Origin: Candidatus Aminicenans sakinawicola JGI OTU-1
Lineage (GTDB): Bacteria; Acidobacteriota; Aminicenantia; Aminicenantales; Aminicenantaceae
Assembly: GCA_000493965.1 (NCBI GenBank)
Contig: AWNV01000001.1
Location: 41,167-105,166, forward strand
DNA: 64,000 bases
Reading direction: 5' to 3'
In this document: one piece after another, positions 2,135-51,616 of the stretch
Numbering within the stretch: the stretch's first letter is position 1
How the letters are laid out: each line of letters opens with the position of its first letter
Notes under the pieces: model-generated
What the model saw: the letters and a program-made list of their open reading frames with translations, nothing else
Database searches by the model: none
Told to the model about the DNA's origin: nothing
Made by a program: the position numbers and the translations under genes

Positions 2135-2265
2135 GGGTGAAATCTCCGATGAAAAGTGCAAGGTTTTTGAGGGGTTTTTGCGAAAAACCTTGCATTTTGA
2201 CCTTGAAATTCCACTGCAGCATATCATATAATTATAGTATTATCAAGAAGTTAATTGATGTTTTT

Positions 2266-20471: not shown

Positions 20472-20474
20472 TTA

Positions 20475-34972: not shown

Positions 34973-36526
34973 TTGACATTAATAGAGTTGCAGATGAAGA
35001 ACAAATTTCTTTGTTTAATTATAGTTCTAGTCTTATTTATTGTCGCAATATATATTTTTCTTCCTATTAATCCATCAATCAAATACTGGTTAGATACTGA
35101 TGGAACTGGTTTTTTTTACATTGGGCAGCTAATACTAGATGGAAAAGCACCTTATGTTGATGTTTGGGATCATAAGCCACCAGGAATTCACTTTATTTAT
35201 GCTTTGGCAATATTACTTGGTAATGGTAGATGGGGTATATGGTTTTTGGGAATGATAAGTTTGTTTGTCTCATCACTTTTGGGATTTAAATTGATATTGA
35301 GATTTTACGGTATATTTCCTGCAATGAGTGCCACAATAATGTATTTTTCTGGATTTAATATACTGCGGAAGGGGGCTGATTATCCTGAAGTATTCGTATT
35401 ACCTCTTCAATTCGCTATCCTATATCTATTTATAAGCTCTGAACGCAAAAAATCCTTTTCTTTCAAGTATATGGCTATTGGTTTCATATCTGCTTTATGT
35501 TTTATCCTCAAACAAACATTGATTGGAATACCTTTATCTGTATTGATTTATTGGTTTTTTGTAAATAAGTCCTACAAAGATTTGTCCACGGTTATGGTTC
35601 GTATAGCTGGATTTTTCATAGGATTTGTATTTGGATTACTACCTGTATTCAGCTATTTAATTTACAAAGGTGCTATGAAGAGTTTTTGGAATAATACTGT
35701 CATATACAATATTTCGTACGTCGGGACATCAGTTTTAGATAAGGTTAGATCAATTTATAGACTTTTAAGATCATTAACCGATTCCTTTTTGCCAGTTCTG
35801 GCAATCCCTACATGGTTTGTCTCAATTATAACTTTAGGACGTCGTAAAGAACTTGATAAATCAGAGAAATTACCGCTAATTTATCTGATTCTTATAAGTT
35901 TACCTGTAGAGATATTTTTGGCTGGTATTAGTGGAAGAACATTTAAACATTATTTTTTGCCATTATTACCTACCTTGATGATACTTGCAGGATTCTTTTT
36001 CTACAAAGTACTTTCATTTGATAAAACGCAATTATTAACAAAAGGTATTAAAGAAAGAGGTATCTTTTTTAAAATTTGGATGGTTTCATTTATAACATTA
36101 TTCATTTTAGTATATCTAATTAGAGGAAATATTGGTGAGATTCATGATCGTGCTGCCAAATATAATCAATATGACAAGAAGTACGGTCAGTTAATCAAAT
36201 ATATAGAAAAAACCACAAGTTTAGATGATTACATTTGTTTTTTGGGGGAAAGAGTAACGTTTAATAACATAACCGGGAGGAAGTATCCAACTCGATTTAT
36301 TAATTATTTTGAGAGACACAAGGAAGAATTTATGGATGATTTGAGAACAAATAAACCTGAATTAATTGTTTTTAATAAGAAACCATATTGGGGATGGGGA
36401 CTTTGGGGAGAATTTCCCTCTGAATTAATGGAAACATTAAAACCCTACTTAGATTTAAATTATATTCAAATTAAGCCTCTGAGTCTAAATGATTTTGCCA
36501 TTTTTAGGTTAAGGCTAGAGAAATAA
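34973..36526 (+). CDS. GT-C glycosyltransferase, ArnT/PMT-like (GT39/GT83-type)
   Basis: Polytopic protein; first periplasmic loop carries ..YVDVWDHKPPGIHFIYA.. (a DxD..KPP motif typical of ArnT/PMT). Confidence 0.65.
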   Translation: MTLIELQMKNKFLCLIIVLVLFIVAIYIFLPINPSIKYWLDTDGTGFFYIGQLILDGKAPYVDVWDHKPPGIHFIYALAILLGNGRWGIWFLGMISLFVSSLLGFKLILRFYGIFPAMSATIMYFSGFNILRKGADYPEVFVLPLQFAILYLFISSERKKSFSFKYMAIGFISALCFILKQTLIGIPLSVLIYWFFVNKSYKDLSTVMVRIAGFFIGFVFGLLPVFSYLIYKGAMKSFWNNTVIYNISYVGTSVLDKVRSIYRLLRSLTDSFLPVLAIPTWFVSIITLGRRKELDKSEKLPLIYLILISLPVEIFLAGISGRTFKHYFLPLLPTLMILAGFFFYKVLSFDKTQLLTKGIKERGIFFKIWMVSFITLFILVYLIRGNIGEIHDRAAKYNQYDKKYGQLIKYIEKTTSLDDYICFLGERVTFNNITGRKYPTRFINYFERHKEEFMDDLRTNKPELIVFNKKPYWGWGLWGEFPSELMETLKPYLDLNYIQIKPLSLNDFAIFRLRLEK

Positions 36527-36587
36527 TATATATAGACAGTGAAGTTACTTATTAATTAGCTGAATTTTTTATAAAAGGGAAAGATAA

Positions 36588-37532
36588 ATGAAAATATTTA
36601 TTGCTGGAGGAGCTGGCTTTATTGGAAATTATACTACAGAATTTCTTTTAAGTGATAAAGAGAATAAAATCATAATCTTTGATAATTTTTCATCTCCTGG
36701 TTCGAGAAAGAACTTAGCCCATTTTAAAAACAATAACTTTTTAAAGATAATTGAAGGTGACATACAGAATTTGGAACTATTAGCCAAATCAATGAAAGGA
36801 TGCGAGAGAGTATATCATTATGCATCAAATCCAGATATAGCAAAAAGCATGACTCAGCCAGATTTAGATTTTTATCAAGGTACCCTTTTAACACAAAATA
36901 TTTTAGAGGCAATGCGAATCAATAATATAAAAATTATTATATATACTTCGGGAAGTGGAATTTACGGCGATCAGGGAGAGATGCCTATAGGGGAAGATTT
37001 TGCCCCTATGCTTCCTGTATCAACTTATGGAGCAAGTAAGCTAGCTTCTGAATCTCTAATTTCAGCTTATTGTCATATGTTCAATATGAATGCTTATGTT
37101 TTTCGGCCAGCAAACGTTGTCGGGAAGCGTCAAACTCATGGGGTTGCTTATGATTTTATAAAAAAGCTTAGAGCAAATCCTCACAAGTTAGAAATATTAG
37201 GTGATGGCTCTCAGAGTAAGTCTTATATTTACGTCAAAGATTTAATTGATGCTATCCATTATGTGATGGAAAATGATCATGATTTATTCAATTATTATAA
37301 TGTAGCTACTGATGATTATATTGATGTAAAAAGGATAGCTGAGATTGTAATTGAAGAGATGGGATTGAAAAATGTTAGTCTTTTATTTGGTCCTGAAAAA
37401 AGAGGCTGGAAAGGAGATGTCCCCATAGTCAGATTTAGTCTGGATAAAATTCATAAATTAGGCTGGTTTGCTAAGATGAGCAGTGAGGAAGCTGTAAGCC
37501 GCTCTGTTTCTGAAATGTTAAGCTGTACCTGA
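36588..37532 (+). CDS. NAD-dependent epimerase/dehydratase (UDP-hexose 4-epimerase-like SDR) no. 4
   Basis: MKIFIAGGAGFIGNYT; YGASK. Confidence 0.75.
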   Translation: MKIFIAGGAGFIGNYTTEFLLSDKENKIIIFDNFSSPGSRKNLAHFKNNNFLKIIEGDIQNLELLAKSMKGCERVYHYASNPDIAKSMTQPDLDFYQGTLLTQNILEAMRINNIKIIIYTSGSGIYGDQGEMPIGEDFAPMLPVSTYGASKLASESLISAYCHMFNMNAYVFRPANVVGKRQTHGVAYDFIKKLRANPHKLEILGDGSQSKSYIYVKDLIDAIHYVMENDHDLFNYYNVATDDYIDVKRIAEIVIEEMGLKNVSLLFGPEKRGWKGDVPIVRFSLDKIHKLGWFAKMSSEEAVSRSVSEMLSCT

Positions 37533-37540
37533 GAAAATAA

Positions 37541-38242
37541 ATGCAAGCAGTCATAATGGCAGGAGGATTGGCTACAAGGATTAGACCTCTAACCAATGAG
37601 ATTCCAAAGTCGTTAGTATCAATCGAAGAAAGACCTTTTTTACAGTATCAAATAGAATTACTTACTTGCTATGGCATAAAAGATATTATTCTGTGTGTGA
37701 GTTACATGGGTAAAAAAATTGAGAACTGTTTTGGTGATGGGAATAAATATAATGCAAGAATAATATATTCATATGAAAAAGAAAAGCTTTTAGGAACTGG
37801 GGGAGCTCTTAAATTAGCTGAAAAAAATCTTAAAGAAAATTTTTTTTTAATATGGGGAGATTCCTATGTTAATTTAAATTATAAAGAAATGCATGACTTT
37901 CATCTAAAGAATTCTGATAATTTCGATGTCACAATAGCAATTTTTTATAACATAAGAAATTATGATAAAAGTAATATTGTTTATAAGAGTGGAAAAATAA
38001 AAAAATATGAAAAAAATTCAACCGATAAAATGAAATATATCGATGCTGGAGTAATGGTTATAAATAAGAAGTTATTATTAAGAATACCTCCTGGAAAGGT
38101 TTTTCAAATAGAAAATTTATTTACTAAACTAGCAAAAGAAGAGAAAATAAAACCTTTTTTAATAAAAAAAAGATATTATGAGGTAGGGTCATTAAAAGGA
38201 TTAAATCAATTCACAAAATTCGTAAAGAGAAATCAAATTTAA
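37541..38242 (+). CDS. Sugar-1-phosphate nucleotidyltransferase (HddC/RmlA-like NTP_transferase)
   Basis: MQAVIMAGGLATRIRPLTNEIPKSLV N-terminal nucleotide-binding signature; 233 aa. Confidence 0.75.
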   Translation: MQAVIMAGGLATRIRPLTNEIPKSLVSIEERPFLQYQIELLTCYGIKDIILCVSYMGKKIENCFGDGNKYNARIIYSYEKEKLLGTGGALKLAEKNLKENFFLIWGDSYVNLNYKEMHDFHLKNSDNFDVTIAIFYNIRNYDKSNIVYKSGKIKKYEKNSTDKMKYIDAGVMVINKKLLLRIPPGKVFQIENLFTKLAKEEKIKPFLIKKRYYEVGSLKGLNQFTKFVKRNQI

Positions 38243-38262
38243 AAATCCGTTCAGTAAGAATA

Positions 38263-38340
38263 AAGTGCAAAGCTCGTGAAGCAAGATAAAGCTGCTAAGT
38301 GCAGTTTTACTTGCAGTAGTGTTATTTAGAGATTTAGATC
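38263..38340. repeat. Degenerate non-coding copy of the 5' end of the gene at 42769 (direct repeat, left copy)
   Basis: aagtgcaaagctcgtgaagcaagataaagctgctaagtgcagttttacttgcagtagtgttatttagag aligns with 42754-42836 (aatgtgcaaagcccttgaagcgatataaaac..gctgagtgcagttttacttgcagtagtgctatttaaag). The left copy carries a 9-bp deletion and an in-frame stop. Confidence 0.7.
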
Positions 38341-38351
38341 AGATTTTATAG

Positions 38352-39644
38352 ATGAGAATGAAGAGTAAAAAAGAAACTGCAATCTTAGGTGGGGGGCTGG
38401 CAGGTCTTTCAACCGCATATTTCATGAAGGATAACTGCATCGTTCTAGAAGAAAATAACGAATTAGGAGGGTTATGCAGAAGTTTTAAAAAAGATGGTTT
38501 TGTATATGATATAGGAGGACATATTCTTTTTTCTAAGAATAAAAAGATATTGTCAGAAATAGTAAGCTGGTTGAGAAATAATGTTCGAAGAAAGTACCGA
38601 AAGAATCAAGTCTGGTATAAGGATAGATTTGTGAAATATCCGTTTGAAAATGGACTTTATTCTTTAGATAAAAAAGAAATATATGATTGTTTAATAGGTT
38701 ATCTGATAAATGAGAATAAAGAACCTAAGAACTTAGAGGAATGGTGTAAATATACTTTTGGCAATGGAATAGCGGAAAAATACTTGATCCCTTATAACGA
38801 AAAGATTTGGAAACATGATTTAGAAGACATGTCAACTCATTGGGTTGAGAGAATTCCGAAGCCTCCAATGAAAGATATAATAAAATCTGCAATTGGAATA
38901 AGGACAGAAGGATACAGACATCAACTTTATTTTTATTACCCAAAAATTGGTGGAATAAATTCACTTATCAATTTTTTAAAAAATAATGTAAAGAATATAG
39001 AAAAAGGATTTAAAGTAACAGGAATAAAAAAGAAGAATAACAAATGGAAAGTTTCAAACGGTAGTAAAATAAAAGAATTTGATCGCATTATTTCTACAAT
39101 CCCAGTCTTTGATTTAATCAGTTGTTTAGATGGAGTTCCTGCTGAGGTAAAAGGAGCTCTCAAGAGACTAAATTATAATTCTTTGATTGTTGTCATGATT
39201 GGAATTAAAAATGAAACATTTAATAATAAAACAGCTATCTATATACCTGACCGTAATATTTTGCCTCATAGAGTATGCTTTATGAAATATTTCTCTAATA
39301 AAAATGCTCCTGAAGGCTGCTCTCATTTAATAGCTGAAATTACAGTTAAACCCAATGATGCTTTATTAAAGATAAATGATAGCACTATTGTCGAAAAAGT
39401 ATCCTGTCAATTGGAAAGAATTTGTGGATTTTCAAAGAATGAAATAATTTCTACTGATATACAAAGAATAAAATATGCATATGTGATATATGATAAAGAT
39501 TATTCAAAAAACACAGACATTGTTTTTGGTTATTTAAACGATCTTGGAATATATTGCACAGGAAGATTTGGTGCTTTTCAATACATCAACATGGACACTT
39601 GCGTAGAAATGTCAAAAAGATTAGTTCGATCTTTGAATAATTAG
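38352..39644 (+). CDS. UDP-galactopyranose-mutase-like FAD enzyme, paralog 2
   Basis: ILGGGLAGLSTAY..ELGGLCRSF..DIGGHILFSK and C-terminal CTGRFGAFQYINMDTCVEMSKRL (compare Glf GGRLAEYKYYDMHQVI). Confidence 0.65.
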   Translation: MRMKSKKETAILGGGLAGLSTAYFMKDNCIVLEENNELGGLCRSFKKDGFVYDIGGHILFSKNKKILSEIVSWLRNNVRRKYRKNQVWYKDRFVKYPFENGLYSLDKKEIYDCLIGYLINENKEPKNLEEWCKYTFGNGIAEKYLIPYNEKIWKHDLEDMSTHWVERIPKPPMKDIIKSAIGIRTEGYRHQLYFYYPKIGGINSLINFLKNNVKNIEKGFKVTGIKKKNNKWKVSNGSKIKEFDRIISTIPVFDLISCLDGVPAEVKGALKRLNYNSLIVVMIGIKNETFNNKTAIYIPDRNILPHRVCFMKYFSNKNAPEGCSHLIAEITVKPNDALLKINDSTIVEKVSCQLERICGFSKNEIISTDIQRIKYAYVIYDKDYSKNTDIVFGYLNDLGIYCTGRFGAFQYINMDTCVEMSKRLVRSLNN

Positions 39645-39692
39645 AAATTAAATAAAATCCGTGTAAGAAATTTTTCTTAACTGAGGGGTAAT

Positions 39693-40694
39693 ATGATTAT
39701 AACAAGAACACCTTTTAGATTTACTCTTGGAGGAGGAGGGACTGATCTACCATCATATTATTCAAAGTATGGAGGTTTTATTTTTGCAGCTGGAATCAAC
39801 AAGTATATGTTTATCAACGTTAACCGCACTATTGTGGATAATTTAGTTCGGGTTAAGTATTCTAAATCAGAGACAGTGACTCATAGAGACGAATTAAAGC
39901 ACCCCATTGCAAAGGAAGCAATGAGGATGACTGAAATTGAAAATTCTTTGGAAATTGTTTCGATAGCTGACATACCTGCTGGAACAGGCTTGGGTTCTTC
40001 AAGTTGTTATGCCGTAGGACTTCTCAATGCTCTTCACACCATGAAAAGGGAATACATTCCACTCCATGAGCTTGCTGAGGAAGCTTGTGACCTTGAGATA
40101 AATAGACTTGGGGAACCTATTGGAAAACAGGATCAATACATGGCTGCCTTCGGGGGGTTGACAGTATTGGACATCAAAAAGGATGGCAATGTGTATGTTA
40201 GGTCAGCAAAATTAGAGGATTCATCCATGGATGATTTAAACAGGAATCTCCTCATGTTTTACACCAACACAACTCGCAGTGCAAATAAGATACTTTCAGA
40301 GCAGAGTAAAGGGATAAAAGAAAAAAAGGAGAATGTTGTAAAAAGTATGCATTATATAAAAGAGATTGGATATAAGATGCTTGAGGCACTTGAAGGTGGT
40401 AATATCACTGATGTAGGACTACTGTTTGATAAACACTGGCAGTATAAGAAGATGATGTCTACTAAGATTTCAAATCCCTGGTTCGATGAGATTTATGAGA
40501 CTGCCAAGCAAAATGGCGCCCTGGGTGGGAAGATTTCTGGGGCTGGCGGGGGTGGTTTCTTTCTCTTTTATACGGAAGAAAATCATAGTAAATTAAGAGA
40601 AGCCATGAGAAAGTTGAATTTAAGAGAGATGCGGTATAGATTTGATTTAGAAGGAACAAAGGTAATTGTGAATTTTATGGAAGGTGTAAGGTAA
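39693..40694 (+). CDS. GHMP-family sugar kinase (HddA-like D-glycero-D-manno-heptose 7-phosphate kinase or galactokinase-like)
   Basis: MIITRTPFRFTLGGGGTDLPSYY N-terminus, PAGTGLGSSS ATP-binding motif and a C-terminal GAGGGGF motif. Confidence 0.75.
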   Translation: MIITRTPFRFTLGGGGTDLPSYYSKYGGFIFAAGINKYMFINVNRTIVDNLVRVKYSKSETVTHRDELKHPIAKEAMRMTEIENSLEIVSIADIPAGTGLGSSSCYAVGLLNALHTMKREYIPLHELAEEACDLEINRLGEPIGKQDQYMAAFGGLTVLDIKKDGNVYVRSAKLEDSSMDDLNRNLLMFYTNTTRSANKILSEQSKGIKEKKENVVKSMHYIKEIGYKMLEALEGGNITDVGLLFDKHWQYKKMMSTKISNPWFDEIYETAKQNGALGGKISGAGGGGFFLFYTEENHSKLREAMRKLNLREMRYRFDLEGTKVIVNFMEGVR

Positions 40695-40702
40695 TTTTTC
40701 AA

Positions 40703-41884
40703 ATGAAAAAGCGGATAGGGATTTTAACTGGTGGCGGTGATGTCCAAACTCTCAATTCTGTTATAGCTTCCGCTTACAATGCTGCTAATACCTTAAACAT
40801 TGAATTGGTAGGAATTATAAAAGGGTGGAAAGGAGCACTAGAGGCGAATTATGTTGATCTATCAAATCTTTCCATTGACCCAAAAATTGGAGGGTCAATC
40901 TTAAAGCACTCACGGGTTAACATAAGTAAAGTTGAAAATGGATACGAAAAGGTTTTGGATAATTTTAAAAGAAACAATATAACAGGTTTAATTGTTATTG
41001 GAGGAGAAGACACTCTATCTAATGCGTTTTTGATTAAACTAATTCCCCAAGTTCTTATTTCAAAGACAATAGATAATGATGTGGGTCAATTTGAATATAA
41101 TGATAAAGAATTCAGATTAGAGAATATTATTAACTATTTTACTTTAGGCTTCCCGACTGCGGCTGAAAAGATAACCTCTTTTGTTAGCTTGAAAGAAGGT
41201 CTGAGAACTACAGCTTATTCCCATGAAAGAATTATTATACTGGAGGCGATGGGAATGCATTCAGGTTGGCTTGCTCTTTCTTCGGGAATGGGTTACCCAG
41301 ATTTTATCATTATCCCTGAATTTCCATTGAAGTATGAATTGTTTCTAGACAAGGTTATAAAAAAATATGAATATCAAAGACATCTTATCATTGTTGTGGC
41401 TGAAGGCGCAAAAAGGCAAAATGGATCATATGTTTGTGCAGAAAAAGATGAAATTGAAGATTTTGACCATCCTCGTTTTGGTGGGTCGGCATATGCTCTA
41501 AGAGATCAATTAAAAAAAGATTTAGTAAAACATTTCAATCTAAGGAATATTAACGCTGTGAATCCTTCGTACTTATATCGCTCAGGAACCCCAAATGAGC
41601 TTGATCAATTTTGGGCAAAAAGGCTGGGAGAAAGAGCAGTCAAATTGTTAGCTGATGGAATGAATGAGACAAGTTTTCTTGCTATTCAAAAAAATAAATC
41701 AGGATTCAGAGTTAAAAATTTCCCTTTATCAAATTTCAACTCTATTGATGAATTACATAGGTTTGTTGATAATAGACTTTATGACCCGGAAGAATTTCAA
41801 ATTACTGAAAATGGTAAGAAGTACTTAAGGGAAATTGTTGAAGAAATTCCGGTTGAGAAATCATATGGAATAAAAGAGGGATAG
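40703..41884 (+). CDS. PfkA-family phosphofructokinase-like sugar-phosphate kinase
   Basis: KRIGILTGGGDVQTLNSVI (compare PFK IGVLTSGGDAPGMNAAI), ..GLIVIGGEDTLSNA..; 393 aa. Confidence 0.7.
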   Translation: MKKRIGILTGGGDVQTLNSVIASAYNAANTLNIELVGIIKGWKGALEANYVDLSNLSIDPKIGGSILKHSRVNISKVENGYEKVLDNFKRNNITGLIVIGGEDTLSNAFLIKLIPQVLISKTIDNDVGQFEYNDKEFRLENIINYFTLGFPTAAEKITSFVSLKEGLRTTAYSHERIIILEAMGMHSGWLALSSGMGYPDFIIIPEFPLKYELFLDKVIKKYEYQRHLIIVVAEGAKRQNGSYVCAEKDEIEDFDHPRFGGSAYALRDQLKKDLVKHFNLRNINAVNPSYLYRSGTPNELDQFWAKRLGERAVKLLADGMNETSFLAIQKNKSGFRVKNFPLSNFNSIDELHRFVDNRLYDPEEFQITENGKKYLREIVEEIPVEKSYGIKEG

Positions 41885-41929
41885 AAATTAAGATGAAATG
41901 GAAATCAATATGATAACAAAGGAGGAACA

Positions 41930-42622
41930 ATGGCCATATTTTTAGACACAGGTAAAATTGAAGAAATCAAAAAGTACATGAATATGGGCGTTCTAAGAGG
42001 AGTAACGACCAATCCGACTATTCTTTTAAAATCTGGAGTAAAAGGAGGAAAAAAGGCTATTAAGAATAGATCAATTGAAATTGCGAATATAATTAAACCC
42101 TATCCTCTATCAGTTGAGGTTACGACGAATGAGCCACAAGAAATGATTGAACAGGCGAGAGAGTTTTCTGAGTGGGCAGGAAATATTAATGTAAAAATAA
42201 CAGTCCATGGCCCTAACGGTGAACTTGATAACCTAGAAGTGGCGCACTTACTAGAGACCAAATACGATATTCGTGTCAATGTTACAGCCATGATGAGTGC
42301 GCAGCAATGCTTTTTAGCTGCTTTAGCTGGGGCCACATATGTCTCTTTATTCGGGGGAAGGGTGAACAACATGGGTTATAATGTTTGCATGGAAATAAAA
42401 AAACTTCGTAAGGTTCTTGACAATTTTGGCCTTAAGGCAAAAATTATTATAGGCTCAACACGGGAAGTTTTAAACGTTATAGAGTGGCTTGAGGCAGGTG
42501 CTCACATTGTTACTGTTATGCCTGAATTTCTTAAAGGAATGATTATTCATCCTTACAGCAAAGAAACGGTGCAGATGTTTCTTGATGATGCGAAAAAAGC
42601 TGAGGAGATGCTTAAGTCCTGA
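41930..42622 (+). CDS. Short transaldolase / fructose-6-phosphate aldolase family (TalC/FSA-like)
   Basis: MAIFLDTGKIEEIKKYMNMGVLRGVTTNPTIL, a near-canonical N-terminus of the 220-aa transaldolase/FSA family. Confidence 0.8.
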   Translation: MAIFLDTGKIEEIKKYMNMGVLRGVTTNPTILLKSGVKGGKKAIKNRSIEIANIIKPYPLSVEVTTNEPQEMIEQAREFSEWAGNINVKITVHGPNGELDNLEVAHLLETKYDIRVNVTAMMSAQQCFLAALAGATYVSLFGGRVNNMGYNVCMEIKKLRKVLDNFGLKAKIIIGSTREVLNVIEWLEAGAHIVTVMPEFLKGMIIHPYSKETVQMFLDDAKKAEEMLKS

Positions 42623-42768
42623 GATGTCCTTGATAACAGTCTGTTCCTGAGTAAAAAATCAAGCGAACTACTTTGATATAGCATGTTAATGAAGATGCAA
42701 AAGTACTTAAAAAAAAGATCGTATTTGGCCTTGACAATTAGACTACTTCAAAATAATGTGCAAAGCCC

Positions 42769-43734
42769 TTGAAGCGATATAAAACTATAGGAATCCTGCT
42801 GAGTGCAGTTTTACTTGCAGTAGTGCTATTTAAAGCAGATTTGGGCGAAGTGGCTGCGGCACTGCGAGGAGCAGATTACCGATATCTGCCATTAGCAGTG
42901 ACCATTTATCTGACCAGCTTCCTTCTCCGCTCATGGCGGTGGGGGGTCCTTTTGAGGCCAGTTAAGCCTGGTATAGACTTTGGGTGCATATTCTCCACGA
43001 TTATGATCGGCTTGACAGCCAACAATCTCTTGCCAGCCAGGATAGGGGAATTAGTGCGAGCTTATCTTATCGGTAAAAGGGAATCCATCAGCAAGAGCGC
43101 TTCTCTGGCAACTATAGTGGTGGAGCGAATCCTCGATGGTTTCACTTTACTTGCCTTTCTTTTTGCCGGTATACTGCTTATCGCCAATCCTTTGGTAGCT
43201 CTGGATTTTGGACTGTATGTGTTGGCTGCTTTTATAGTGGTTCTGGTCGTGTTGGTTATTATGACTTTCCGAGGAGCTATGTGCTTGACCTGTATAGAGA
43301 AAGCCACAAGGATTTTGCCTGCCAAGTTCTCGGCATTCGTAATAAGATTATTCAAATCATTCTTAGAAGGACTGGGATCGCTGCGAGATGCGCGACTGAC
43401 CTTAAAAGGGCTGGCACTGTCTTTGGGAGTATGGACTATTGAAGGCTTAGTATACTATATTATCCTTTGTTCGTTTGGAATTCCCCTTTCTGTCTACGCG
43501 ACAATGGTATTGCTTGCCGTGGTCAATGTAGGAGCTGTACTGCCATCGGCACCGGGCGCACTTGGTACGTTTCAATTCTTCTGTGTCTTAGGGCTTGGCT
43601 TTTTTGCTGTGGATAAGAGTACTGCACTGGCCTTATCGGTGGTCTTGCAGAGTGTTATGTGGCTTCCGGTAACTCTGTTGGGGCTAGGGTTTCTCTGGCG
43701 AATCCCGGCTGAACTGCGGTTTCGTATAAAATAG
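42769..43734 (+). CDS. Flippase-like membrane protein (lysylphosphatidylglycerol-synthase TM region / UPF0104 family)
   Basis: 8-TM protein, ..FLLRSWRWGVLLRP..LLPARIGELVRAYL..; TTG start; about 50% GC against about 32% in the flanking genes. Confidence 0.6.
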   Translation: MKRYKTIGILLSAVLLAVVLFKADLGEVAAALRGADYRYLPLAVTIYLTSFLLRSWRWGVLLRPVKPGIDFGCIFSTIMIGLTANNLLPARIGELVRAYLIGKRESISKSASLATIVVERILDGFTLLAFLFAGILLIANPLVALDFGLYVLAAFIVVLVVLVIMTFRGAMCLTCIEKATRILPAKFSAFVIRLFKSFLEGLGSLRDARLTLKGLALSLGVWTIEGLVYYIILCSFGIPLSVYATMVLLAVVNVGAVLPSAPGALGTFQFFCVLGLGFFAVDKSTALALSVVLQSVMWLPVTLLGLGFLWRIPAELRFRIK

Positions 43735-43861
43735 TAAGAGAAACACATTCATACTTCGAAATGTTTGTGTTTGGTTGTGCACAGTCTGTAACAGTTTTGG
43801 TTAAATTTTTTTGTCATAAAAATGTTGACGTGAGCAGACGTTAATTTTACAGGATTGAAAA

Positions 43862-45919
43862 ATGCTTTTTAGAAACTCTCGTATTCGAGCGTTTTTCTTG
43901 TTTTTCGCTGTAGTCTATTTAGTAATATTCTACTTTTTCTATTTAAGGTATGTCCCTCTGGTAACGCCTTTTCAGATAATACTTATTCCGATTTTATTTA
44001 TTCTTTTTGTTTTAACAATGACAAACATTCAATGGGGGATTCTGTTTTTTATCTTTGCCTTTCCATTAATAAATAATCTCCCCTATTTTTTTGGAATTTA
44101 CGGCCATATTCCACATGCTCCTACTGCTTTAGTTTTATTTTTGGCTTTTTTTGCAGGGTGGTTAGTTCATTCTGTTTTTTCTAAATCAGAGATTTCTTTT
44201 GAACATCCAATTTTTAAGCCCTTAATTTTATTATCACTGCTTATTTTTGTGTCCGGAATTATCACTTTCCTTAGATATTCAAACTTTTATCCTTTTCTAA
44301 GTGATTACGTATACGAGCTCATTACTAACACGAATGGAGTAACCGCAGGGGGAGCCATAATGAGTTCGGTGTTTTTCTCCCTGAATTACTTAACAGGATT
44401 TGCTTTCTTTTTTATTCTTTTGAACACGGTTAAAGAAAAGGAATTTATAATAAAAATATTAGTGGTTTTATTAATAAGCACTTCTATTTCCATTGCTTTT
44501 GGTTTCTTCCAGCATTACAAAGATATAGAAATTGCAAATAATCCTATCAGTTTTACTCAAGGATTTATAAATGGGACATTTAAAGATGCTATGTCTTTCG
44601 GGGGCTATTTAGCTGTTTTAATTCCCGTGATATTATCAATGATTTTTTTCTTTAAGGGTACGCTTAGAGTTTTTTCCTTTTTAGTATTCATATCTGCAGT
44701 ATTTATCCTTCCTAATACCGGTTCAAGAAGCGGCATTGTAGCTTTGGCTGTAAGTTTTGTGTTTTTTCTGGGTTTTTATTTAATAAGCCTGAAAAAACAA
44801 AAATCTTTCTCTTTAAAGAAAATAATGAGTTTTGGTGCAGCCTTTTTACTTATTTTTTCTGTTATTATATCGATTCTATTATTTTCAAAAGGTTCTATAG
44901 TGTATAAAAGATTAGATGAATTGTGGGTGTCATATAAAGAGGGCGGATTGGAGAAAGCATTAGCTGAACGAAGTGCAAGCCAATGGAAAATGGCAGCCAA
45001 AATGATTAAGGACTATCCATTTACAGGAGTAGGAATCGGGGCATTTATAATTGAGCTTCCTAATTATGCAGAAACAGATCAAATTCCTCTAAGAACCACG
45101 GATTCTGCAGAAAATTATTTTCTTCAAGTTGGATCAGAGCTGGGAATAATAGGTCTTTTTTTCGCGTTGTGGATTTTTTGGTTAATTTTCAAACAGATAA
45201 AAAAAGGATTTGATAAATATTTATCTCAGGACAGATGGAAGTATATTCGGATCGGATTTTTCTGCGGGATAATTTCTATGTTCATGATTTTCTTTGTACA
45301 TACTTATATTGGAAGTTATGAAATTAAGTATACTTTCTGGCTCTTGGTTGGATCGCTTTTTATTATGAATAGAAATGAAGCTGAGCCTGAAAGCAGAATT
45401 CATTTAAGTAAAAAATTTAAAATTTTTAGCCTGGCGCTAGTTCTAATCTTCAGCGGGCTGCATTTATGGAATTCAACCCGCTCTTTATCTTTGAAAAGCC
45501 GGACAAAACTGTATGATCTACAGCAAAATTTCGGTCTCTATCAGTTGGAGAAAAACCAGGAGGGAAGGGAATTCAGATGGACGCGAGGATATGGTGGATG
45601 GACCATTAAAATTGAAAAGCCGGTAATTGAGATTCCAATGCTAGCTTCTCATCCGGATATCGAAAAAAATCCACTCAGAGTCAAGATCTATTTGATAAAA
45701 AATTTCTTTAAAGAGAAAAGACTGCTAGATGAGGTTGTTTTGACAGAAAACTCATGGAAAACTTATGAATATTATATTCCAGAGGAAGTCAATCGTCAGG
45801 CTATTTTGCTGTTCAAAGTTAGCAGAACCTGGAATCCTCTGAAAACATTTGGAACTCCTGATCCAAGGAATTTGGGGATAGCTGTGGGGAAGATAAACTT
45901 TAAAACACTAAATCATTAA
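43862..45919 (+). CDS. O-antigen ligase-like membrane protein with a C-terminal extracytoplasmic domain (third Wzy_C-type protein)
   Basis: 685 aa; the polytopic N-terminal 470 aa carry ..LPNTGSRSGIVALAVSF.. (Wzy_C); a soluble C-terminal domain of about 190 aa. Confidence 0.6.
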   Translation: MLFRNSRIRAFFLFFAVVYLVIFYFFYLRYVPLVTPFQIILIPILFILFVLTMTNIQWGILFFIFAFPLINNLPYFFGIYGHIPHAPTALVLFLAFFAGWLVHSVFSKSEISFEHPIFKPLILLSLLIFVSGIITFLRYSNFYPFLSDYVYELITNTNGVTAGGAIMSSVFFSLNYLTGFAFFFILLNTVKEKEFIIKILVVLLISTSISIAFGFFQHYKDIEIANNPISFTQGFINGTFKDAMSFGGYLAVLIPVILSMIFFFKGTLRVFSFLVFISAVFILPNTGSRSGIVALAVSFVFFLGFYLISLKKQKSFSLKKIMSFGAAFLLIFSVIISILLFSKGSIVYKRLDELWVSYKEGGLEKALAERSASQWKMAAKMIKDYPFTGVGIGAFIIELPNYAETDQIPLRTTDSAENYFLQVGSELGIIGLFFALWIFWLIFKQIKKGFDKYLSQDRWKYIRIGFFCGIISMFMIFFVHTYIGSYEIKYTFWLLVGSLFIMNRNEAEPESRIHLSKKFKIFSLALVLIFSGLHLWNSTRSLSLKSRTKLYDLQQNFGLYQLEKNQEGREFRWTRGYGGWTIKIEKPVIEIPMLASHPDIEKNPLRVKIYLIKNFFKEKRLLDEVVLTENSWKTYEYYIPEEVNRQAILLFKVSRTWNPLKTFGTPDPRNLGIAVGKINFKTLNH

Positions 45920-45940
45920 TCTAATAACGTAAGAAATTAG

Positions 45941-45991
45941 CTGCTCCCAGAGCAATGTCCGTTAAGGACTTTTGCTGGGAGCATTTTTTTT
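45941..45991 (+). terminator. Rho-independent terminator between convergent genes
   Basis: Stem ctgctcccagagcaa (45941-45955) / ttgctgggagca (45972-45983) followed by an 8-T run (45984-45991). Confidence 0.6.
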
Positions 45992-46874
45992 ACATAAAAA
46001 TATCAGGCCAGGTATCTGTTGCTCCATGAAAGGTCAGGCGTACGGCTTCTCCTTCCTTTACAGGCTTGATATAAATTTCATAATCACTCATATAGCGGTC
46101 AGCAGAAGGACTGGCGGCAAAAACAATATATTTCCCATCGGTTGACCATCTTGGGAAATAGCAGTGGGGACGTCCGGGAATTGAGTCCTCAAAAACAGTT
46201 TTATGATTCCCATCTGGAGTGCCGATATATATGTCGTGAATGCCGCCGTAGACCCAGACTAAATTCAGGCTGTCAGGACTGTAGTGCGGCATGCAGCCGC
46301 GGGAATAGATAGAATGACTGCTTCCGTCCAGCTTCACTATGTGGACGCTCCATGGATTTGGATAGTCAGAACTGAAAGAGAGCCATTTGCCGTCCGGAGA
46401 AATTGATGGATGCCTCAACCCTTTACCCTTAAACTCAGGAAGCTTGGCAGGAATGATCTCTTCTGGTTTCTGTTTTTCTATATCATAAAGCATAATGGAG
46501 TTCCCTGATTCTTTTTGAATAACGTAAACAATCTTTGAGCTGTCCTCAGTAATATCAAATGAAAAACCATCTGCTACAACCAGTTGGAAATCTGATCCAT
46601 CAGGACGCATCCTGTAAATATCATCATTTCGTTGATAATAAATCCATTTTCCATCTTTAGACCAGACAGGGTGTTCGTTTCTTTCCCGGTCATTTGTAAG
46701 ACGCACTTTTCCGGTGCCGTCAGCTTTCATCTTGTAAATTTCCCATGTGCCATGTCTTGAGGTAGACCAGACAATGGTTCCAGGGATCTTCCCCCTGATT
46801 GATGCCAGAACTTTCATTTCCTTAAGGGTAGGTGTAGTCTGAAAACTGCCTTGAAGAAATAGTGGAATGAACAA
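45990..46874 (-). CDS. Periplasmic TolB-like beta-propeller (PD40/WD40-like repeats) protein
   Basis: Repeated ..DG..I.Y..DIY.. propeller blades (RHGTWEIYKMKADGTGKVRLT, SKDGKWIYYQRNDDIYRMRPDGSD, and others). The signal peptide KYKYRLVILLFIPLFLQGSFQ begins upstream of the first canonical start, so the real start is unclear (46874 TTG, or non-canonical at about 46907). Confidence 0.6.
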   Translation of the reverse strand: MFIPLFLQGSFQTTPTLKEMKVLASIRGKIPGTIVWSTSRHGTWEIYKMKADGTGKVRLTNDRERNEHPVWSKDGKWIYYQRNDDIYRMRPDGSDFQLVVADGFSFDITEDSSKIVYVIQKESGNSIMLYDIEKQKPEEIIPAKLPEFKGKGLRHPSISPDGKWLSFSSDYPNPWSVHIVKLDGSSHSIYSRGCMPHYSPDSLNLVWVYGGIHDIYIGTPDGNHKTVFEDSIPGRPHCYFPRWSTDGKYIVFAASPSADRYMSDYEIYIKPVKEGEAVRLTFHGATDTWPDIFM

Positions 46875-46927
46875 TAGGATGACAAGTCTGTATTTATATT
46901 TATTTATGATATTTCATCCCTCTTTTT

Positions 46928-47806
46928 TTATTGGCTTTTATATGCAGCTTTATTGAGCCAGGATATTCCCAGAAAACAAAAATTCATCACAAGAAGAAGT
47001 TCAAGAACTTCAGAATGTAATGGAAATTCTGGATATTTTAAATAAAGCCACCCGAACATATCCCGAAATATAGAAGCCCAGATAAGCCCTATAATTAAAC
47101 CCGGGAGGAGGATTCTACCAAGGCTTAAAAGATTTTTCCTGGCTAAAGCCGCTATTAGAAACATAAAAATTATAGTTCCCATACTAAACCATAAAGGTTT
47201 CCTCAGGGGATTGGCAGCTTCTAGCCCGCTGAAAACCTTTAATATAACAACCAGATTAACACACAAGCCTAATGCGACAAGTGAAGTGATTATCCATAAA
47301 ACCATTGAAAATGAACGAAGAGTTCCCTTGATTTCACTCTGGCCTCGTAAAAAGAAAGATGAGGGAAAATTTTTCTTGATTTGTTCTCCATTAGAAATAA
47401 AAATAAGTGTTCCTAAAAACCCCAAGAGTAATGTTCCCAGGCTGAATAGAATTGGTGACTTAAAAGCCCAATTAAGTCCCTGGAATCTGTTCAACAAGCC
47501 TTGAATGATAACATTCATTCCTGCACCAAGTAAAAAACCATATATAGCAAGCGCCAAATATTTAATGAACCAAGCAGAAATTATAATCTCAGCAGCAAAA
47601 ACTCCCAAAATAAAAAATGTTGCAAGCAGAAGAGCAATCCAAGGCCAGGACCCTGAGGTTCTTGCCTTGAAGAATACCGCTGCCCAACATGTTATAAGAT
47701 TAATTAGAAAATAGATTATTCTGAATTGAGAAGGATGAAAAAGCGCGTTAGATGGACAGAAACATCTTTTTTTGCTATTAGTTACACTCATTTTAAGAAA
47801 AAACAT
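46928..47806 (-). CDS. Hypothetical integral membrane protein (8-9 TM helices)
   Basis: Hydrophobic profile only; no recognisable motif; co-oriented with the TolB-like gene. Confidence 0.4.
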   Translation of the reverse strand: MFFLKMSVTNSKKRCFCPSNALFHPSQFRIIYFLINLITCWAAVFFKARTSGSWPWIALLLATFFILGVFAAEIIISAWFIKYLALAIYGFLLGAGMNVIIQGLLNRFQGLNWAFKSPILFSLGTLLLGFLGTLIFISNGEQIKKNFPSSFFLRGQSEIKGTLRSFSMVLWIITSLVALGLCVNLVVILKVFSGLEAANPLRKPLWFSMGTIIFMFLIAALARKNLLSLGRILLPGLIIGLIWASIFRDMFGWLYLKYPEFPLHSEVLELLLVMNFCFLGISWLNKAAYKSQ

Positions 47807-48069
47807 TTTTTAATTATAGCAATGAAAATTTTTCATTTCAAGTCACTATAATATGATGAGTTTCACTGACTGTTTTAAGAAGGTCAAACTTGACTTAAAA
47901 AAGCTGTTTGGGCTACTTTATCATCTCGATCAGCCTAGGATCATTCCTGATATTGATATCTTAAGAATATAAATCAGTGTGAATAAGCAAAAGATTTTGA
48001 AATTGAAGGTTTGAAAAGGATTTTATAAAAAAAATTGCAATAACTTAACAAATATGTTAAATAAATAGT

Positions 48070-48708
48070 ATGAAATGGGAAGAATTTGTTAAAAAGATGG
48101 GTAATTTAGCTGTTATTGATACAGAGAATCTTCTTGCAGGTAAGGGAGACGATAATTCTGTAAAGGTGCAGATCAGCCGCTGGCTAAAAGCAGGACGTCT
48201 GATTCAGCTTAAACGAGGCATTTATGTTTTTGCCGAACAATATACAAGGATTAATGCTTTTGAGCCTTATATTGCGTGGGTATTAAAGAATCCTTCCTAT
48301 ATCAGTGTGGAGAAAGCATTGGAATACTATGATTTAATTCCGGAAGCAGTGCCTGTATATTGTTCAGTCACTACTAAAAGAGCAGGGGAATTTACTTCTG
48401 AGGTGGGGACTTTTTCATATAGGCATATTAAAAAAGAGCTTTTTTGGGGATATAAATCAATTACTTTAAATAAGCAAACCGGTTTTATTGCGCATTCGGA
48501 AAAGGCGCTTCTTGATTTAATATATTTAAAACATATAAAACCAACATTAGGATATCTAGAAGAATTACGATTACAGAATGTGGAAAAGTTGAATATCGAT
48601 ACATTATTTGAATATGCACAGAGATTTGAAAAACCTAAAATTCTACGCTCTGCAGAAGTGATTAAAGAGTATATCCTTTCTTATAAGAGAGAGGAGAAAA
48701 CGTTATGA
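48070..48708 (+). CDS. AbiEi-family antitoxin / transcriptional regulator (type IV toxin-antitoxin system)
   Basis: 212 aa; N-terminal wHTH-like region ..VKVQISRWLKAGRLIQLKRGIYVF.. typical of AbiEi; 4-bp overlap with the downstream toxin gene. Confidence 0.6.
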   Translation: MKWEEFVKKMGNLAVIDTENLLAGKGDDNSVKVQISRWLKAGRLIQLKRGIYVFAEQYTRINAFEPYIAWVLKNPSYISVEKALEYYDLIPEAVPVYCSVTTKRAGEFTSEVGTFSYRHIKKELFWGYKSITLNKQTGFIAHSEKALLDLIYLKHIKPTLGYLEELRLQNVEKLNIDTLFEYAQRFEKPKILRSAEVIKEYILSYKREEKTL

Positions 48709-49511
48709 AGGATTATTTGTTAGAGCTAACTGCATCTAAAAGAGGCTTTAATGCAAAATTGAATAGTATGCGAGAATATCTTCAAGCGTATATCTTGAAA
48801 ATATTTCATGATCAAGGGCTGTTCCGAACTACAGCTTTCTTGGGGGGAAGCGCCTTGCGATTTTTACATGGACTTCCGCGTTTTTCAGAAAATTTAGATT
48901 TTTCACTTACAGTAAACAAAACCTATTCATTTGTTGATATCATCAAGAAAGTTGAGAAGGAATTTGAGTCGATGGGCTATAAGGTTTCTATTAAATATAA
49001 TGATGAGAAGATAGTTTATTATGCTTTCGTGAAGTTTGAAGGCTTGATGTATGAAGCAGGAATTTCGAATCTTCCTGATCAGAATTTTACAATTAAGATT
49101 GAGATTGATACCAATCCTCCTGAAGGAGCTGTAACAGAGACAAGAGTAGTCAATAAATATTTCCCTATTGCCTTTTTATCGTATGAACTTACGTCACTGT
49201 TTTCAGGAAAATTACATGCTTTGTTAAGCAGAAAGTATACAAAGGGAAGAGATTTCTTTGATTTGGGATGGTATATTTCACGTTGGAAAGCTATCTGTCC
49301 TAACATTTCATTGCTTCATAACGCACTCAAGCAAACCGATTATAAAGGTGAATTGCCATTAGAGGATAATTGGAGGAAGTATATTTATGCGGTAGTAGAA
49401 AAAGAGGATTGGAAGAAAGTTAAGGAAGATGTAGAGAACTTTCTCGAAAATCCTTCGGATTTGGATATTTTTACAAAGGAAAATGTGCTCAATCTTGTTA
49501 GGGGAATATAA
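48705..49511 (+). CDS. AbiEii/AbiGii-family nucleotidyltransferase toxin (DUF1814)
   Basis: ..FLGGSALRFLHGLPRFSENLDFSL.. matches the DUF1814 hallmark (GGTAL..RFSEDxDF). Confidence 0.7.
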   Translation: MKDYLLELTASKRGFNAKLNSMREYLQAYILKIFHDQGLFRTTAFLGGSALRFLHGLPRFSENLDFSLTVNKTYSFVDIIKKVEKEFESMGYKVSIKYNDEKIVYYAFVKFEGLMYEAGISNLPDQNFTIKIEIDTNPPEGAVTETRVVNKYFPIAFLSYELTSLFSGKLHALLSRKYTKGRDFFDLGWYISRWKAICPNISLLHNALKQTDYKGELPLEDNWRKYIYAVVEKEDWKKVKEDVENFLENPSDLDIFTKENVLNLVRGI

Positions 49512-49562
49512 TCGAGAACTACAAACCTTATGTCACACCCGAGGTGACATAAAAGATTAAAA

Positions 49563-51509: not shown

Positions 51510-51616
51510 CCATTTTAAATTGAGAAGAGCTGGATTTCGCATTTTATAGACATGAATGACTTTTTTTGTTATTATTTTGTCCTATTTATTAACAGAAATC
51601 CAGGATTGAATAGAAA

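What the first reader, a model, noticed from the sequence alone, without database searches (positions are those of the whole stretch)
38263..42836. About 75-bp duplicated gene-start fragment brackets the 4-gene sugar-phosphate module
The intergenic segment 38263-38340 is a degenerate copy of the promoter-proximal region and first codons of the flippase-like gene at 42769. It has a 9-bp deletion, several substitutions and an in-frame stop. The order therefore reads fragment - [Glf-like, GHMP kinase, PFK, transaldolase] - intact gene start. This is the footprint expected if the 4-gene block was inserted by recombination in front of the flippase-like gene, leaving a decayed copy of the junction. 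Together with the repeat at 19313/20475, it argues that this locus is assembled by cassette shuffling.
Basis: seen in the sequence. Interest (0 to 1): 0.7.

Follow-up and report, generated by a model that had tools for sequence, protein, structure and literature searches.

The report
Leftover stub of a relocated gene
The short repeat is real, but it is the decayed stub of a membrane "flippase-like" gene left at its old position after a working copy was placed 4.4 kb downstream; such gene remnants are common in bacterial surface-sugar gene clusters.

Summary
Window 38259-38336 is a degenerate copy of 42752-42842, the last 17 nt upstream plus the first ~25 codons of the PF03706 flippase-like gene (local alignment score 79 against 17.1 ± 2.4 for shuffles, z = 25; 62/71 identical). 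The gap is 11 nt and shifts the frame; it is not 9 nt.

In relatives about 85% identical, the flippase-like gene lies between the nucleotidyltransferase and the FAD-oxidoreductase, exactly where the fragment lies. The fragment's upstream spacer matches theirs. Directly after the fragment come the last codons of a GT2 gene that follows the flippase-like gene in those relatives. So the fragment is an in-place relic of an internal deletion.

The intact gene lies on a 1,188-nt insertion (42662-43849). It splits a transaldolase-to-Wzy junction that is contiguous in four relatives, including the closest one found. The flippase-like gene moved; the 4-gene module did not.

No relative had nucleotidyltransferase–flippase with the module absent. 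The source of the new copy and the mechanism of both events are unresolved. This is the kind of remnant known from Salmonella O-antigen clusters, so interest is low.

The parts
37541..38242 (+). Sugar-1-phosphate nucleotidyltransferase gene (HddC/MurU-like). It is the upstream neighbour of the flippase-like gene in most close relatives.
   Evidence: PF00483 hit; NCBIfam hits. Nucleotidyltransferase-to-flippase adjacency in L011-L017 and L060.
38243..38258 (+). Ancestral spacer between the nucleotidyltransferase and the flippase-like gene, retained.
   Evidence: Colinear with the same spacer in L015 and with the remaining spacer in L061.
38259..38336 (+). Relic of the flippase-like gene: 17 nt upstream, GTG start at 38276 and about 25 codons. 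It carries an 11-nt frameshifting deletion between 38291 and 38292, a small indel near 38330, and a stop at 38327 in the start-codon frame.
   Evidence: z = 25; 62/71 to the intact copy; 48-51 of 71-73 to the four closest relatives, 38-43/71 to two more distant ones.
38337..38361 (+). Relic of the last ~7 codons and stop of a 214-229-aa GT2 gene. In relatives that gene lies between the flippase-like gene and the FAD-oxidoreductase and overlaps the oxidoreductase start (ATGA at 38358-38361).
   Evidence: Alignments to the GT2 3' ends of L035, L037, L038, L060 and L065 (z = 21). No GT2(229) orthologue elsewhere in the window.
38352..42622 (+). Four-gene sugar-phosphate module: FAD/amine-oxidase-fold protein (38352 or, more likely, 38358 to 39644), HddA-like GHMP kinase (39693-40694), PFK (40703-41884), transaldolase/FSA (41930-42622). 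It is in its ancestral place.
   Evidence: Pfam and NCBIfam hits. Orthologous and colinear with L011, L015, L031, L061 at 80-97% aa identity.
42623..42661 (+). Conserved 39-nt 3' flank of the transaldolase gene; left edge of the insertion site.
   Evidence: 87-90% identical to the transaldolase-downstream sequence of L061-L064.
42662..43849 (+). 1,188-nt (±1) inserted segment carrying the working flippase-like gene. It consists of 42662-42745 (origin unknown), 42746-42768 (flippase upstream region shared with the relic), 42769-43734 (CDS, TTG start, 321 aa), 43735-43773 (flippase 3' flank with hairpin 43741-43772, colinear with the flippase–GT2 junction of L065/L017) and 43774-43849 (origin unknown).
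   Evidence: Absent between the transaldolase flank and the Wzy leader in L061-L064. Flank analyses. No terminal inverted or direct repeats. GC 47% against 26-38% for neighbouring genes.
43850..45919 (+). Wzy_C (O-antigen ligase/polymerase-like) gene with its 12-nt leader; right edge of the insertion site.
   Evidence: PF04932 hit. Window 43848-43990 aligns with the gene that directly follows the transaldolase in L063 (z = 42.6). 83-86% aa identity to L061-L064.

Best explanation
The 38259-38336 fragment is a pseudogene relic. It is what remains, at the original position, of a PF03706 flippase-like gene that once lay between the nucleotidyltransferase and the FAD-oxidoreductase. The inferred ancestral order is SDR – nucleotidyltransferase – flippase – GT2(214-229 aa) – FAD-oxidoreductase – GHMP kinase – PFK – transaldolase – Wzy. 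Two events then occurred in the lineage of this genome. (1) A ~1.19-kb segment carrying a closely related flippase-like gene, with ~25 nt of its upstream region and its 3' hairpin flank, was inserted into the 51-nt transaldolase–Wzy spacer, 39 nt after the transaldolase stop. (2) The original copy, now redundant, lost everything from about codon 25 to the last ~7 codons of the adjacent GT2 gene (about 1.6 kb if only those two genes lay there). That left [flippase 5' stub][GT2 3' tail] in front of the FAD-oxidoreductase. Later small changes accumulated: an 11-nt deletion and about four substitutions on the stub, and about four on the intact copy, including GTG to TTG at the start. Shown directly: the homology, the synteny, both pairs of junctions, and that stub and intact copy are each other's closest relatives. 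Inferred: the order of the two events, that redundancy allowed the deletion, and that both joins arose by illegitimate recombination. The motif AAAGCAGATTT occurs in both parents next to the deletion junction. The stub itself most likely does nothing now except form part of the untranslated spacer of the operon.
For: Position: flippase orthologues 72-80% identical in protein lie directly after the nucleotidyltransferase in L011-L014, L015/16, L017 and L060. Where the contigs extend, the FAD-oxidoreductase and its module lie downstream: directly in L011-L016, after DUF362 and GT2 in L060. Flanking genes are orthologous at 83-89% nt identity. Left context: the 16 nt before the stub and the stub's own -17..-1 region are colinear with the L015 nucleotidyltransferase–flippase spacer. 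Right context: 38337-38361 aligns with the 3' end of the GT2 that precedes the FAD-oxidoreductase in L035, L037, L038, L060 and L065 (z = 21). L065 shows flippase–GT2–FAD-oxidoreductase–GHMP–PFK in one contig. Other lineages show different degrees of decay at this same junction: a ~75-nt GT2 tail in L015, ~25 nt in L011, and a clean removal in L061, which equals the window minus 92 nt. Insertion: in L061-L064 the transaldolase 3' flank '...GAGTAAAAAATCA' runs directly into 'CAGG..ATG' of Wzy. In the window these are 1,188 nt apart, with the flippase-like gene between them. L061 is the closest relative found (92-97% aa for FAD-oxidoreductase, GHMP kinase and PFK). Kinship: stub and intact copy are 62/71 identical. 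The stub matches the four closest relatives at 48-51 of 71-73 positions and two more distant ones at 38-43/71. Stub and intact copy also share derived states, for example TATTTARAG where six relatives have TnTACnGrG. Each also keeps ancestral states the other has lost, so the stub is not a recent copy of the present gene. A documented precedent exists: Salmonella group B1/D1 O-antigen clusters keep a wzy remnant after gaining a wzy gene elsewhere, and it degrades by serial deletions (PMC3715488).
Against: No intermediate with two complete flippase copies was found, and no relative was found with transaldolase–flippase–Wzy. All ten same-species contigs fetched carry the 4-gene module and the intact gene in the same order. 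The stub was compared in five of them and is identical there, so there is no polymorphism to time the events. The outer parts of the inserted segment (42662-42745 and 43774-43849) match nothing, including the resident nucleotidyltransferase 3' end. So the new copy was probably not copied straight from the resident arrangement, and its source is unknown. The deletion junction cannot be reconstructed exactly, because both copies of the GATTT motif are present, either through an 8-nt tandem duplication or because the join lies between them. The closest relative, L061, has no flippase-like gene at either site, so the state of the most recent common ancestor is inferred, not observed. Relatives are metagenome contigs of unknown mutual phylogeny.
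Confidence: 0.75

Rival explanations
1. The ancestor had nucleotidyltransferase–flippase. The 4-gene module was inserted by recombination into or in front of the flippase-like gene, duplicating about 75-90 bp of the target, and the upstream copy then decayed.
For: Two direct copies of the gene start bracket the module. The locus is clearly mosaic.
Against: The module is present, orthologous and downstream of the nucleotidyltransferase in every relative whose contig spans both. The predicted empty site was not found. The upstream copy is followed by a GT2 3' tail, not by a module boundary. The downstream copy is preceded by 39 nt of transaldolase flank plus 85 nt of unrelated DNA. The transaldolase flank and the Wzy leader are contiguous in four relatives, so the 1.19-kb flippase piece is the insert.
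Confidence: 0.06
2. Ectopic templated patch. A ~78-nt copy of the intact gene's 5' end was written into the nucleotidyltransferase–FAD-oxidoreductase spacer by template switching or gene conversion primed on microhomology. No full gene ever decayed there in this lineage.
For: Exactly this kind of event appears to have made the other repeat in the window. A 57-nt copy of the Bac_transf 3' end follows a 10-nt microhomology at 20465-20474 and is absent from the 91%-identical L063. The closest relative, L061, lacks the 92 nt containing the stub.
Against: The 92 nt missing in L061 include the GT2 tail, which cannot have come from the intact flippase region. The patch would have had to land precisely where it recreates the junction with the ancestral flippase upstream spacer seen in L015. 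The stub keeps ancestral bases that the intact copy has lost, including the GTG start.
Confidence: 0.1
3. End of an imported DNA patch. A fragment SDR/nucleotidyltransferase–flippase-5' from a related strain was integrated by homology-facilitated illegitimate recombination. One end was anchored in SDR/nucleotidyltransferase and the other joined illegitimately in front of the FAD-oxidoreductase. The recipient already had its flippase-like gene after the transaldolase.
For: The nucleotidyltransferase gene is somewhat more diverged from L061 (77-92% nt in 100-nt windows; 84% aa) than SDR (94% aa) or FAD-oxidoreductase (92% aa). The 13% divergence between stub and intact copy would then be allelic.
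Against: There is no sharp identity break at the stub. The model still needs the GT2 tail to be present beforehand. The stub is closer to the resident intact copy than to any other allele found.
Confidence: 0.06
4. The repeated ~75 nt is a functional element, such as a shared promoter, leader or RNA motif, kept at two operon positions by selection.
For: The 40-nt core is 93% identical.
Against: The conserved core is the coding sequence of the first transmembrane helix of the intact protein. The region 36000-46000 has no Rfam match at E ≤ 1. Promoter-like and terminator-like sites are no more frequent than in shuffles. The closest relative lacks the upstream copy entirely.
Confidence: 0.02

Closest known systems
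wzy gene remnants in Salmonella enterica group B1 and D1 O-antigen gene clusters (Reeves et al. 2013, PMC3715488)
   Same: A membrane-protein gene of a glycan pathway is functionally replaced by a copy at another position. The original then decays in place by deletions to a short non-functional remnant between its old neighbours, and related lineages keep remnants of different lengths. The same pattern is seen here in the window, L015, L011 and L061.
   Different: In Salmonella the replacing wzy is an unrelated gene at a distant locus (rfc). Here the replacing copy is the closest known relative of the relic and lies only 4.4 kb away in the same operon. Function and redundancy are inferred here, not shown.
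Unitary or truncated pseudogenes left by microhomology-associated deletions in bacterial genomes
   Same: A truncated 5' stub with a frameshift and a premature stop, at the position where relatives carry the intact orthologue.
   Different: An intact paralogous copy survives nearby. The deletion also removed a neighbouring GT2 gene, so the glycan made may have changed.
Target-site or junction duplications flanking inserted cassettes (IS/transposon target duplications, integron cassettes)
   Same: Two direct repeats bracket a block of genes.
   Different: The repeats are ~78-90 nt and 13% diverged, and they do not abut the ends of the block. No terminal inverted repeats, target duplications or attC-like structure occur at the true insertion ends (42662/43849). 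The only transposase in the window (IS5 family, 815-2227) is 40 kb away.

Membership tests
Gene remnant / in-place pseudogene relic | Significant homology to part of a functional gene | tested here: met
   z = 25 local alignment to the intact PF03706 gene start; 62/71 identity; tblastn match to residues 10-28.
Gene remnant / in-place pseudogene relic | Reading frame destroyed or truncated | tested here: met
   An 11-nt frameshifting gap, a stop after 17 codons, and only ~25 of 321 codons left.
Gene remnant / in-place pseudogene relic | Lies at the position, and between the neighbours, where relatives carry the intact orthologue | tested here: met
   The nucleotidyltransferase is directly followed by the flippase-like gene in L011-L017 and L060, with the FAD-oxidoreductase downstream wherever the contig reaches it. 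The upstream spacer and the downstream GT2 tail are both colinear.
Gene remnant / in-place pseudogene relic | No longer expressed as protein; evolves neutrally | not testable with these tools
   The five same-species contigs compared are identical at the stub, so there is no polymorphism to analyse, and no expression data are available.
   Where the nucleotidyltransferase–flippase pair was found and the contig extends, the FAD-oxidoreductase module lies downstream of the flippase-like gene: directly in L011-L016, after DUF362 and GT2 in L060. L017 ends too early to tell. In L031 and L061 the module abuts the nucleotidyltransferase.
   A GT2 3' tail lies between the stub and the module. The 39-nt transaldolase flank plus 85 nt of unrelated DNA lie between the module and the second copy.
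Insertion of the 1.19-kb flippase segment | The flanks of the insert are contiguous in relatives | tested here: met
   L061-L064: the transaldolase flank runs straight into the Wzy leader and gene (z = 42.6, 68).
Transposon / IS / integron cassette | Terminal inverted repeats, target-site duplication, an attC-like structured end, or a recombinase nearby | tested here: not met
   No terminal inverted or direct repeats at 42662/43849. The 3' flank folds no better than shuffles (z = -0.01). The only transposase is at 815-2227. An integrase was not searched for across the whole window.
PF03706 / TIGR00374 flippase-like protein (the intact gene) | Full-length match to the family profile above the curated cut-off | tested here: met
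   PF03706: 182 bits against a 33.4 cut-off, profile positions 3-302 of 302. TIGR00374: 106.6 bits against 43.2. Flippase activity itself was not tested.

The most novel reading that the evidence does not exclude
The flippase-like gene behaves as a compact, compositionally foreign, self-contained cassette of about 1.0-1.2 kb. Its GC is 47-49% (GC3 47-53%), against 26-41% for its neighbours, in all five lineages measured. Homology to other copies ends within about 25 nt upstream and 40 nt downstream, and a conserved hairpin sits at its 3' end. On this reading it is repeatedly relocated within glycan loci of these uncultured bacteria by a dedicated but unrecognised mechanism, and the stub plus the 1.19-kb insert are one captured hop.
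Probability: 0.1. Interest if true: 0.5.

Novelty: new member of a known kind. Interest (0 to 1): 0.2.

Why it matters
It fixes the direction of the rearrangement in this locus: the flippase-like gene moved, a neighbouring GT2 gene was lost, and the 4-gene sugar-phosphate module stayed where it was. This matters for annotation, because 38243-38351 should be marked as a pseudogene remnant and not as a promoter or spacer. It also matters for inferring how the surface glycan of this uncultured lineage, probably Aminicenantes/OP8, diversifies. Several relatives show different stages of decay at the same junction, which illustrates serial deletion in a glycan locus outside the well-studied enterobacteria. 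It does not reveal a new mechanism or a new class of element.

Tried and rejected
1. Homology between the 129-nt transaldolase–flippase spacer and the nucleotidyltransferase 3' end or the nucleotidyltransferase–flippase spacers of the window, L011, L015, L017 and L060. Only an A-run matched (p 0.04-0.6), so the new copy does not carry the resident upstream gene end.
2. Origin of the insert's outer 85 nt and 76 nt. They have no significant match to the rest of the window or to any of the 65 fetched loci. A 9-mer shared with the transaldolase flank is not significant (p = 0.15).
3. Tandem duplication of [flippase...transaldolase] followed by two deletions. Rejected as less parsimonious, because one deletion would have to end exactly at the duplication boundary, and no trace of a second module copy exists.
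4. A possible second relic, the start of the GT2 that follows the transaldolase in L031/L033, at 42652-42688. It is weak (p ≈ 0.03) and does not match the window's own orthologue at 51617, so it is left open.
5. A flippase relic in the 420-nt nucleotidyltransferase–FAD-oxidoreductase gap of L036: none found.
6. A clean microhomology deletion between the two AAAGCAGATTT motifs. The predicted junction differs from the observed one by 8 extra nt, so this remains only a suggestion.
7. The genome-contig scan with the flippase protein returned only hits of 41% identity or less, so it gave neither synteny nor a name for the organism. Accession-number searches of the literature matched only an unrelated E. 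coli paper.
8. Rfam and promoter/terminator scans found nothing specific.
Full report
**Observation**

The window between 33 and 46 kb is one strand of a large polysaccharide locus. The genes, in order, are:
- methyltransferase
- GT2
- a PMT_2-type GT-C
- SDR epimerase/dehydratase
- sugar-1-P nucleotidyltransferase (37541-38242)
- a 109-nt spacer
- FAD/amine-oxidase-fold protein (38352-39644)
- HddA-like GHMP kinase
- PFK
- transaldolase/FSA (41930-42622)
- a 146-nt spacer
- PF03706/TIGR00374 flippase-like gene (42769-43734, TTG start)
- Wzy_C gene (43862-45919)

The repeat finder gives 38292-38331 / 42796-42835 (93%) and 38259-38293 / 42752-42786 (83%). A gapped local alignment joins them, 38259-38335 against 42752-42842, with score 79 against 17.1 ± 2.4 for shuffles (z = 25). 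The main gap is 11 nt, not 9, so it shifts the frame. From the GTG at 38276 the frame stops after 17 codons. After the gap the flippase frame reads LLSAVLLAVVLFRDL, against LLSAVLLAVVLFKADL in the intact protein. A self-BLAST of the window finds only three non-self repeats, so this is not background.

**Relatives with the flippase-like gene**

The exact flippase protein occurs on many contigs of one population: single-cell assemblies GCA_000405405.1, GCA_000398205.1, GCA_000398285.1 and GCA_000398385.1, plus Logan assemblies. All ten contigs fetched show the same gene order. The stub was compared in five of them and is identical there, so there is no polymorphism within the species.

Flippase homologues at 67-80% identity were traced to their contigs.
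- L011-L014 read SDR – nucleotidyltransferase – flippase – FAD-oxidoreductase – GHMP – PFK, continuing to SIS and transaldolase where the contig allows.
- L015 and L016 have the same order; L015 reaches PFK.
- L017 reads SDR – nucleotidyltransferase – flippase – start of a GT2.
- L060 reads SDR – nucleotidyltransferase – flippase – DUF362 – GT2 – FAD-oxidoreductase.
- L065 reads flippase – GT2 – FAD-oxidoreductase – GHMP – PFK.
- L037 reads flippase – DUF362 – GT2 – FAD-oxidoreductase.

The flanking genes are orthologues at 83-89% nt identity, and the flippase-like gene at 75-79%. So in the nearest lineages that carry this gene, it lies exactly where the window has the fragment.

**The fragment's own context**

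To the left, the 16 nt after the nucleotidyltransferase stop and the stub's -17 to -1 region are colinear with the nucleotidyltransferase–flippase spacer of L015.

To the right, 38337-38361 ('GATCAGATTTTATAGATGAGAATGA') is not flippase sequence. It aligns with the last codons and stop of the 214-229-aa GT2 that precedes and overlaps the FAD-oxidoreductase in L035, L037, L038, L060 and L065 (z = 21). The window contains no orthologue of that GT2.

The spacer is therefore [ancestral spacer][flippase 5' stub][GT2 3' tail], which is the product of one internal deletion in a flippase–GT2 pair. The same junction has decayed to different extents in other lineages:
- L015 keeps about 75 nt of the GT2 tail behind an intact flippase-like gene.
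- L011 keeps about 25 nt.
- L061 has lost everything. It equals the window minus 92 nt, 38266-38357.

**Where the intact copy lies**

The closest relative found is L061, with aa identity of SDR 94%, FAD-oxidoreductase 92%, GHMP kinase 97%, PFK 93%, transaldolase 93% and Wzy 83%. In L061 and in L062-L064 the transaldolase stop is followed by a conserved 39-nt flank ('...GAGTAAAAAATCA'). That flank runs directly into 'CAGG...ATG' of a Wzy gene orthologous to the window's (z = 42.6). In the window the same two sequences end at 42661 and resume at 43850. The 1,188 nt between them hold the flippase-like gene.

Homology of this insert to other flippase loci begins about 25 nt upstream of the start. 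It ends about 40 nt after the stop, in a hairpin (43741-43772) that overlaps the GT2 start in L065 and L017. The outer 85 nt and 76 nt match nothing available. There are no terminal inverted repeats or target duplications.

**Kinship of the two copies**

Over the shared columns the stub is 62/71 identical to the intact copy. It matches the four closest relatives at 48-51 of 71-73 positions and two more distant ones at 38-43/71. The two copies share derived states. Each also retains ancestral bases that the other has lost: the stub keeps GTG and two G's, and the intact copy keeps four positions. So they are sister sequences that have been diverging for some time. The stub is not a fresh copy of the present gene.

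**Explanation**

The simplest history is this. The ancestral order was nucleotidyltransferase – flippase – GT2 – FAD-oxidoreductase ... transaldolase – Wzy. A 1.19-kb flippase segment was inserted into the transaldolase–Wzy spacer. The now redundant original was then deleted from about codon 25 to the last ~7 codons of the GT2. I put this at 0.75.

The steps shown directly are the homologies, the synteny and both pairs of junctions. The steps inferred are the order of events, the role of redundancy, the illegitimate-recombination mechanism and the source of the new copy. The motif AAAGCAGATTT occurs in both parent sequences beside the deletion junction, but the junction carries 8 extra nt and cannot be reconstructed exactly.

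**Rivals**

No nucleotidyltransferase–flippase pair without the module was found. The module abuts the nucleotidyltransferase in L031 and L061. The transaldolase–Wzy junction is contiguous in four relatives.
- A templated-patch origin deserves some weight, because the window's other repeat looks like one. However, it cannot explain the GT2 tail or the exact recreation of the ancestral upstream junction.
- An imported-patch model and a functional-element model have little support.

**Comparison with known cases**

This is the situation described for Salmonella O-antigen clusters. [quoted passage not shown] The present case is a new example in an uncultured lineage. That lineage is probably Aminicenantes/OP8: the only named close transaldolase homologues, at 80-83%, are Aminicenantes MAGs, and many SAG taxa of that name exist. 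The link between the accessions and that name is from memory only. Unlike in Salmonella, the replacing copy is the relic's nearest relative and lies in the same operon.

**Verdict**

Novelty: a new member of a known kind. Interest: 0.2.

Noticed in passing
The first copy is the last 20 codons of the Bac_transf gene (18023-19372). The second lies in the spacer after the GT4 gene (19380-20471). L063 is 91% identical over 4 kb with the same gene order and lacks just these 57 nt. The extra copy starts right after a 10-nt motif (GACCTTCAGA) shared by both sites. It therefore looks like a microhomology-primed templated patch, not a bracket around an inserted gene.
   Followed up: partly
window 42769-43734; L011, L015, L017, L060 flippase genes: The flippase-like gene is a strong compositional outlier in every lineage examined: GC 47-49% and GC3 47-53%, against 26-41% and 19-40% for neighbouring genes. 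This could reflect foreign origin or amino-acid and codon bias of a membrane protein; it was not resolved.
   Followed up: partly
window 42662-51548 compared with L031-L034: In L031-L034 the transaldolase gene is followed, after ~115 nt, by a 323-aa GT2 and two FAD-oxidoreductases. The window's orthologous spacer and GT2 start are at 51549-51760 (z = 26-29). So relative to those genomes the window carries ~8.9 kb extra: flippase, Wzy_C, a PD40 beta-propeller (-), a hypothetical (-), an AbiEi/AbiEii toxin-antitoxin pair and a 648-aa double GT2.
   Followed up: partly
window 42652-42688: There is a weak resemblance (27/37 nt, p ≈ 0.03) to the start of the GT2 gene that follows the transaldolase in L031. 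It may be a second gene-start relic at the same junction, or chance.
   Followed up: partly
window 43741-43772: A 12-bp AT-rich hairpin lies directly after the flippase stop. An equivalent hairpin is present at the flippase–GT2 junction of L065, where its 3' arm covers the first codons of the GT2. Its function is unknown.
   Followed up: no
window 41885-41929 compared with L011 14607-15203 and L013 9231-9848: Relatives L011 and L013 have a SIS-domain (GmhA-like) gene between PFK and the transaldolase. The window has none there or elsewhere. L061 instead has an extra 345-aa methyltransferase between the FAD-oxidoreductase and the GHMP kinase. The 'module' itself therefore varies in content.
   Followed up: no
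L036 3450-3525: The 420-nt nucleotidyltransferase–FAD-oxidoreductase spacer of this relative contains a (TACAA)n pentanucleotide run of about 12 copies and no flippase relic.
   Followed up: no
window 815-2227 (-): An IS5-family transposase gene lies at the left edge of the locus (NF033578, 337 bits). It is 40 kb from the finding, and no link to it was seen.
   Followed up: no
L005 11821-16554; L009 9250-12242: Two single-cell assemblies of the same population show the GT2/FAD-oxidoreductase genes downstream of the AbiE pair in inverted orientation relative to the window. These could be real inversions or chimeras from whole-genome amplification.
   Followed up: no
L011 15954, L013 10599, L014 10326 (contig ends): Several independent assemblies of the L011-type relative all break about 45 nt after the transaldolase stop. 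This suggests strain heterogeneity or a repeat at the same transaldolase-downstream junction that is rearranged in the window.
   Followed up: no
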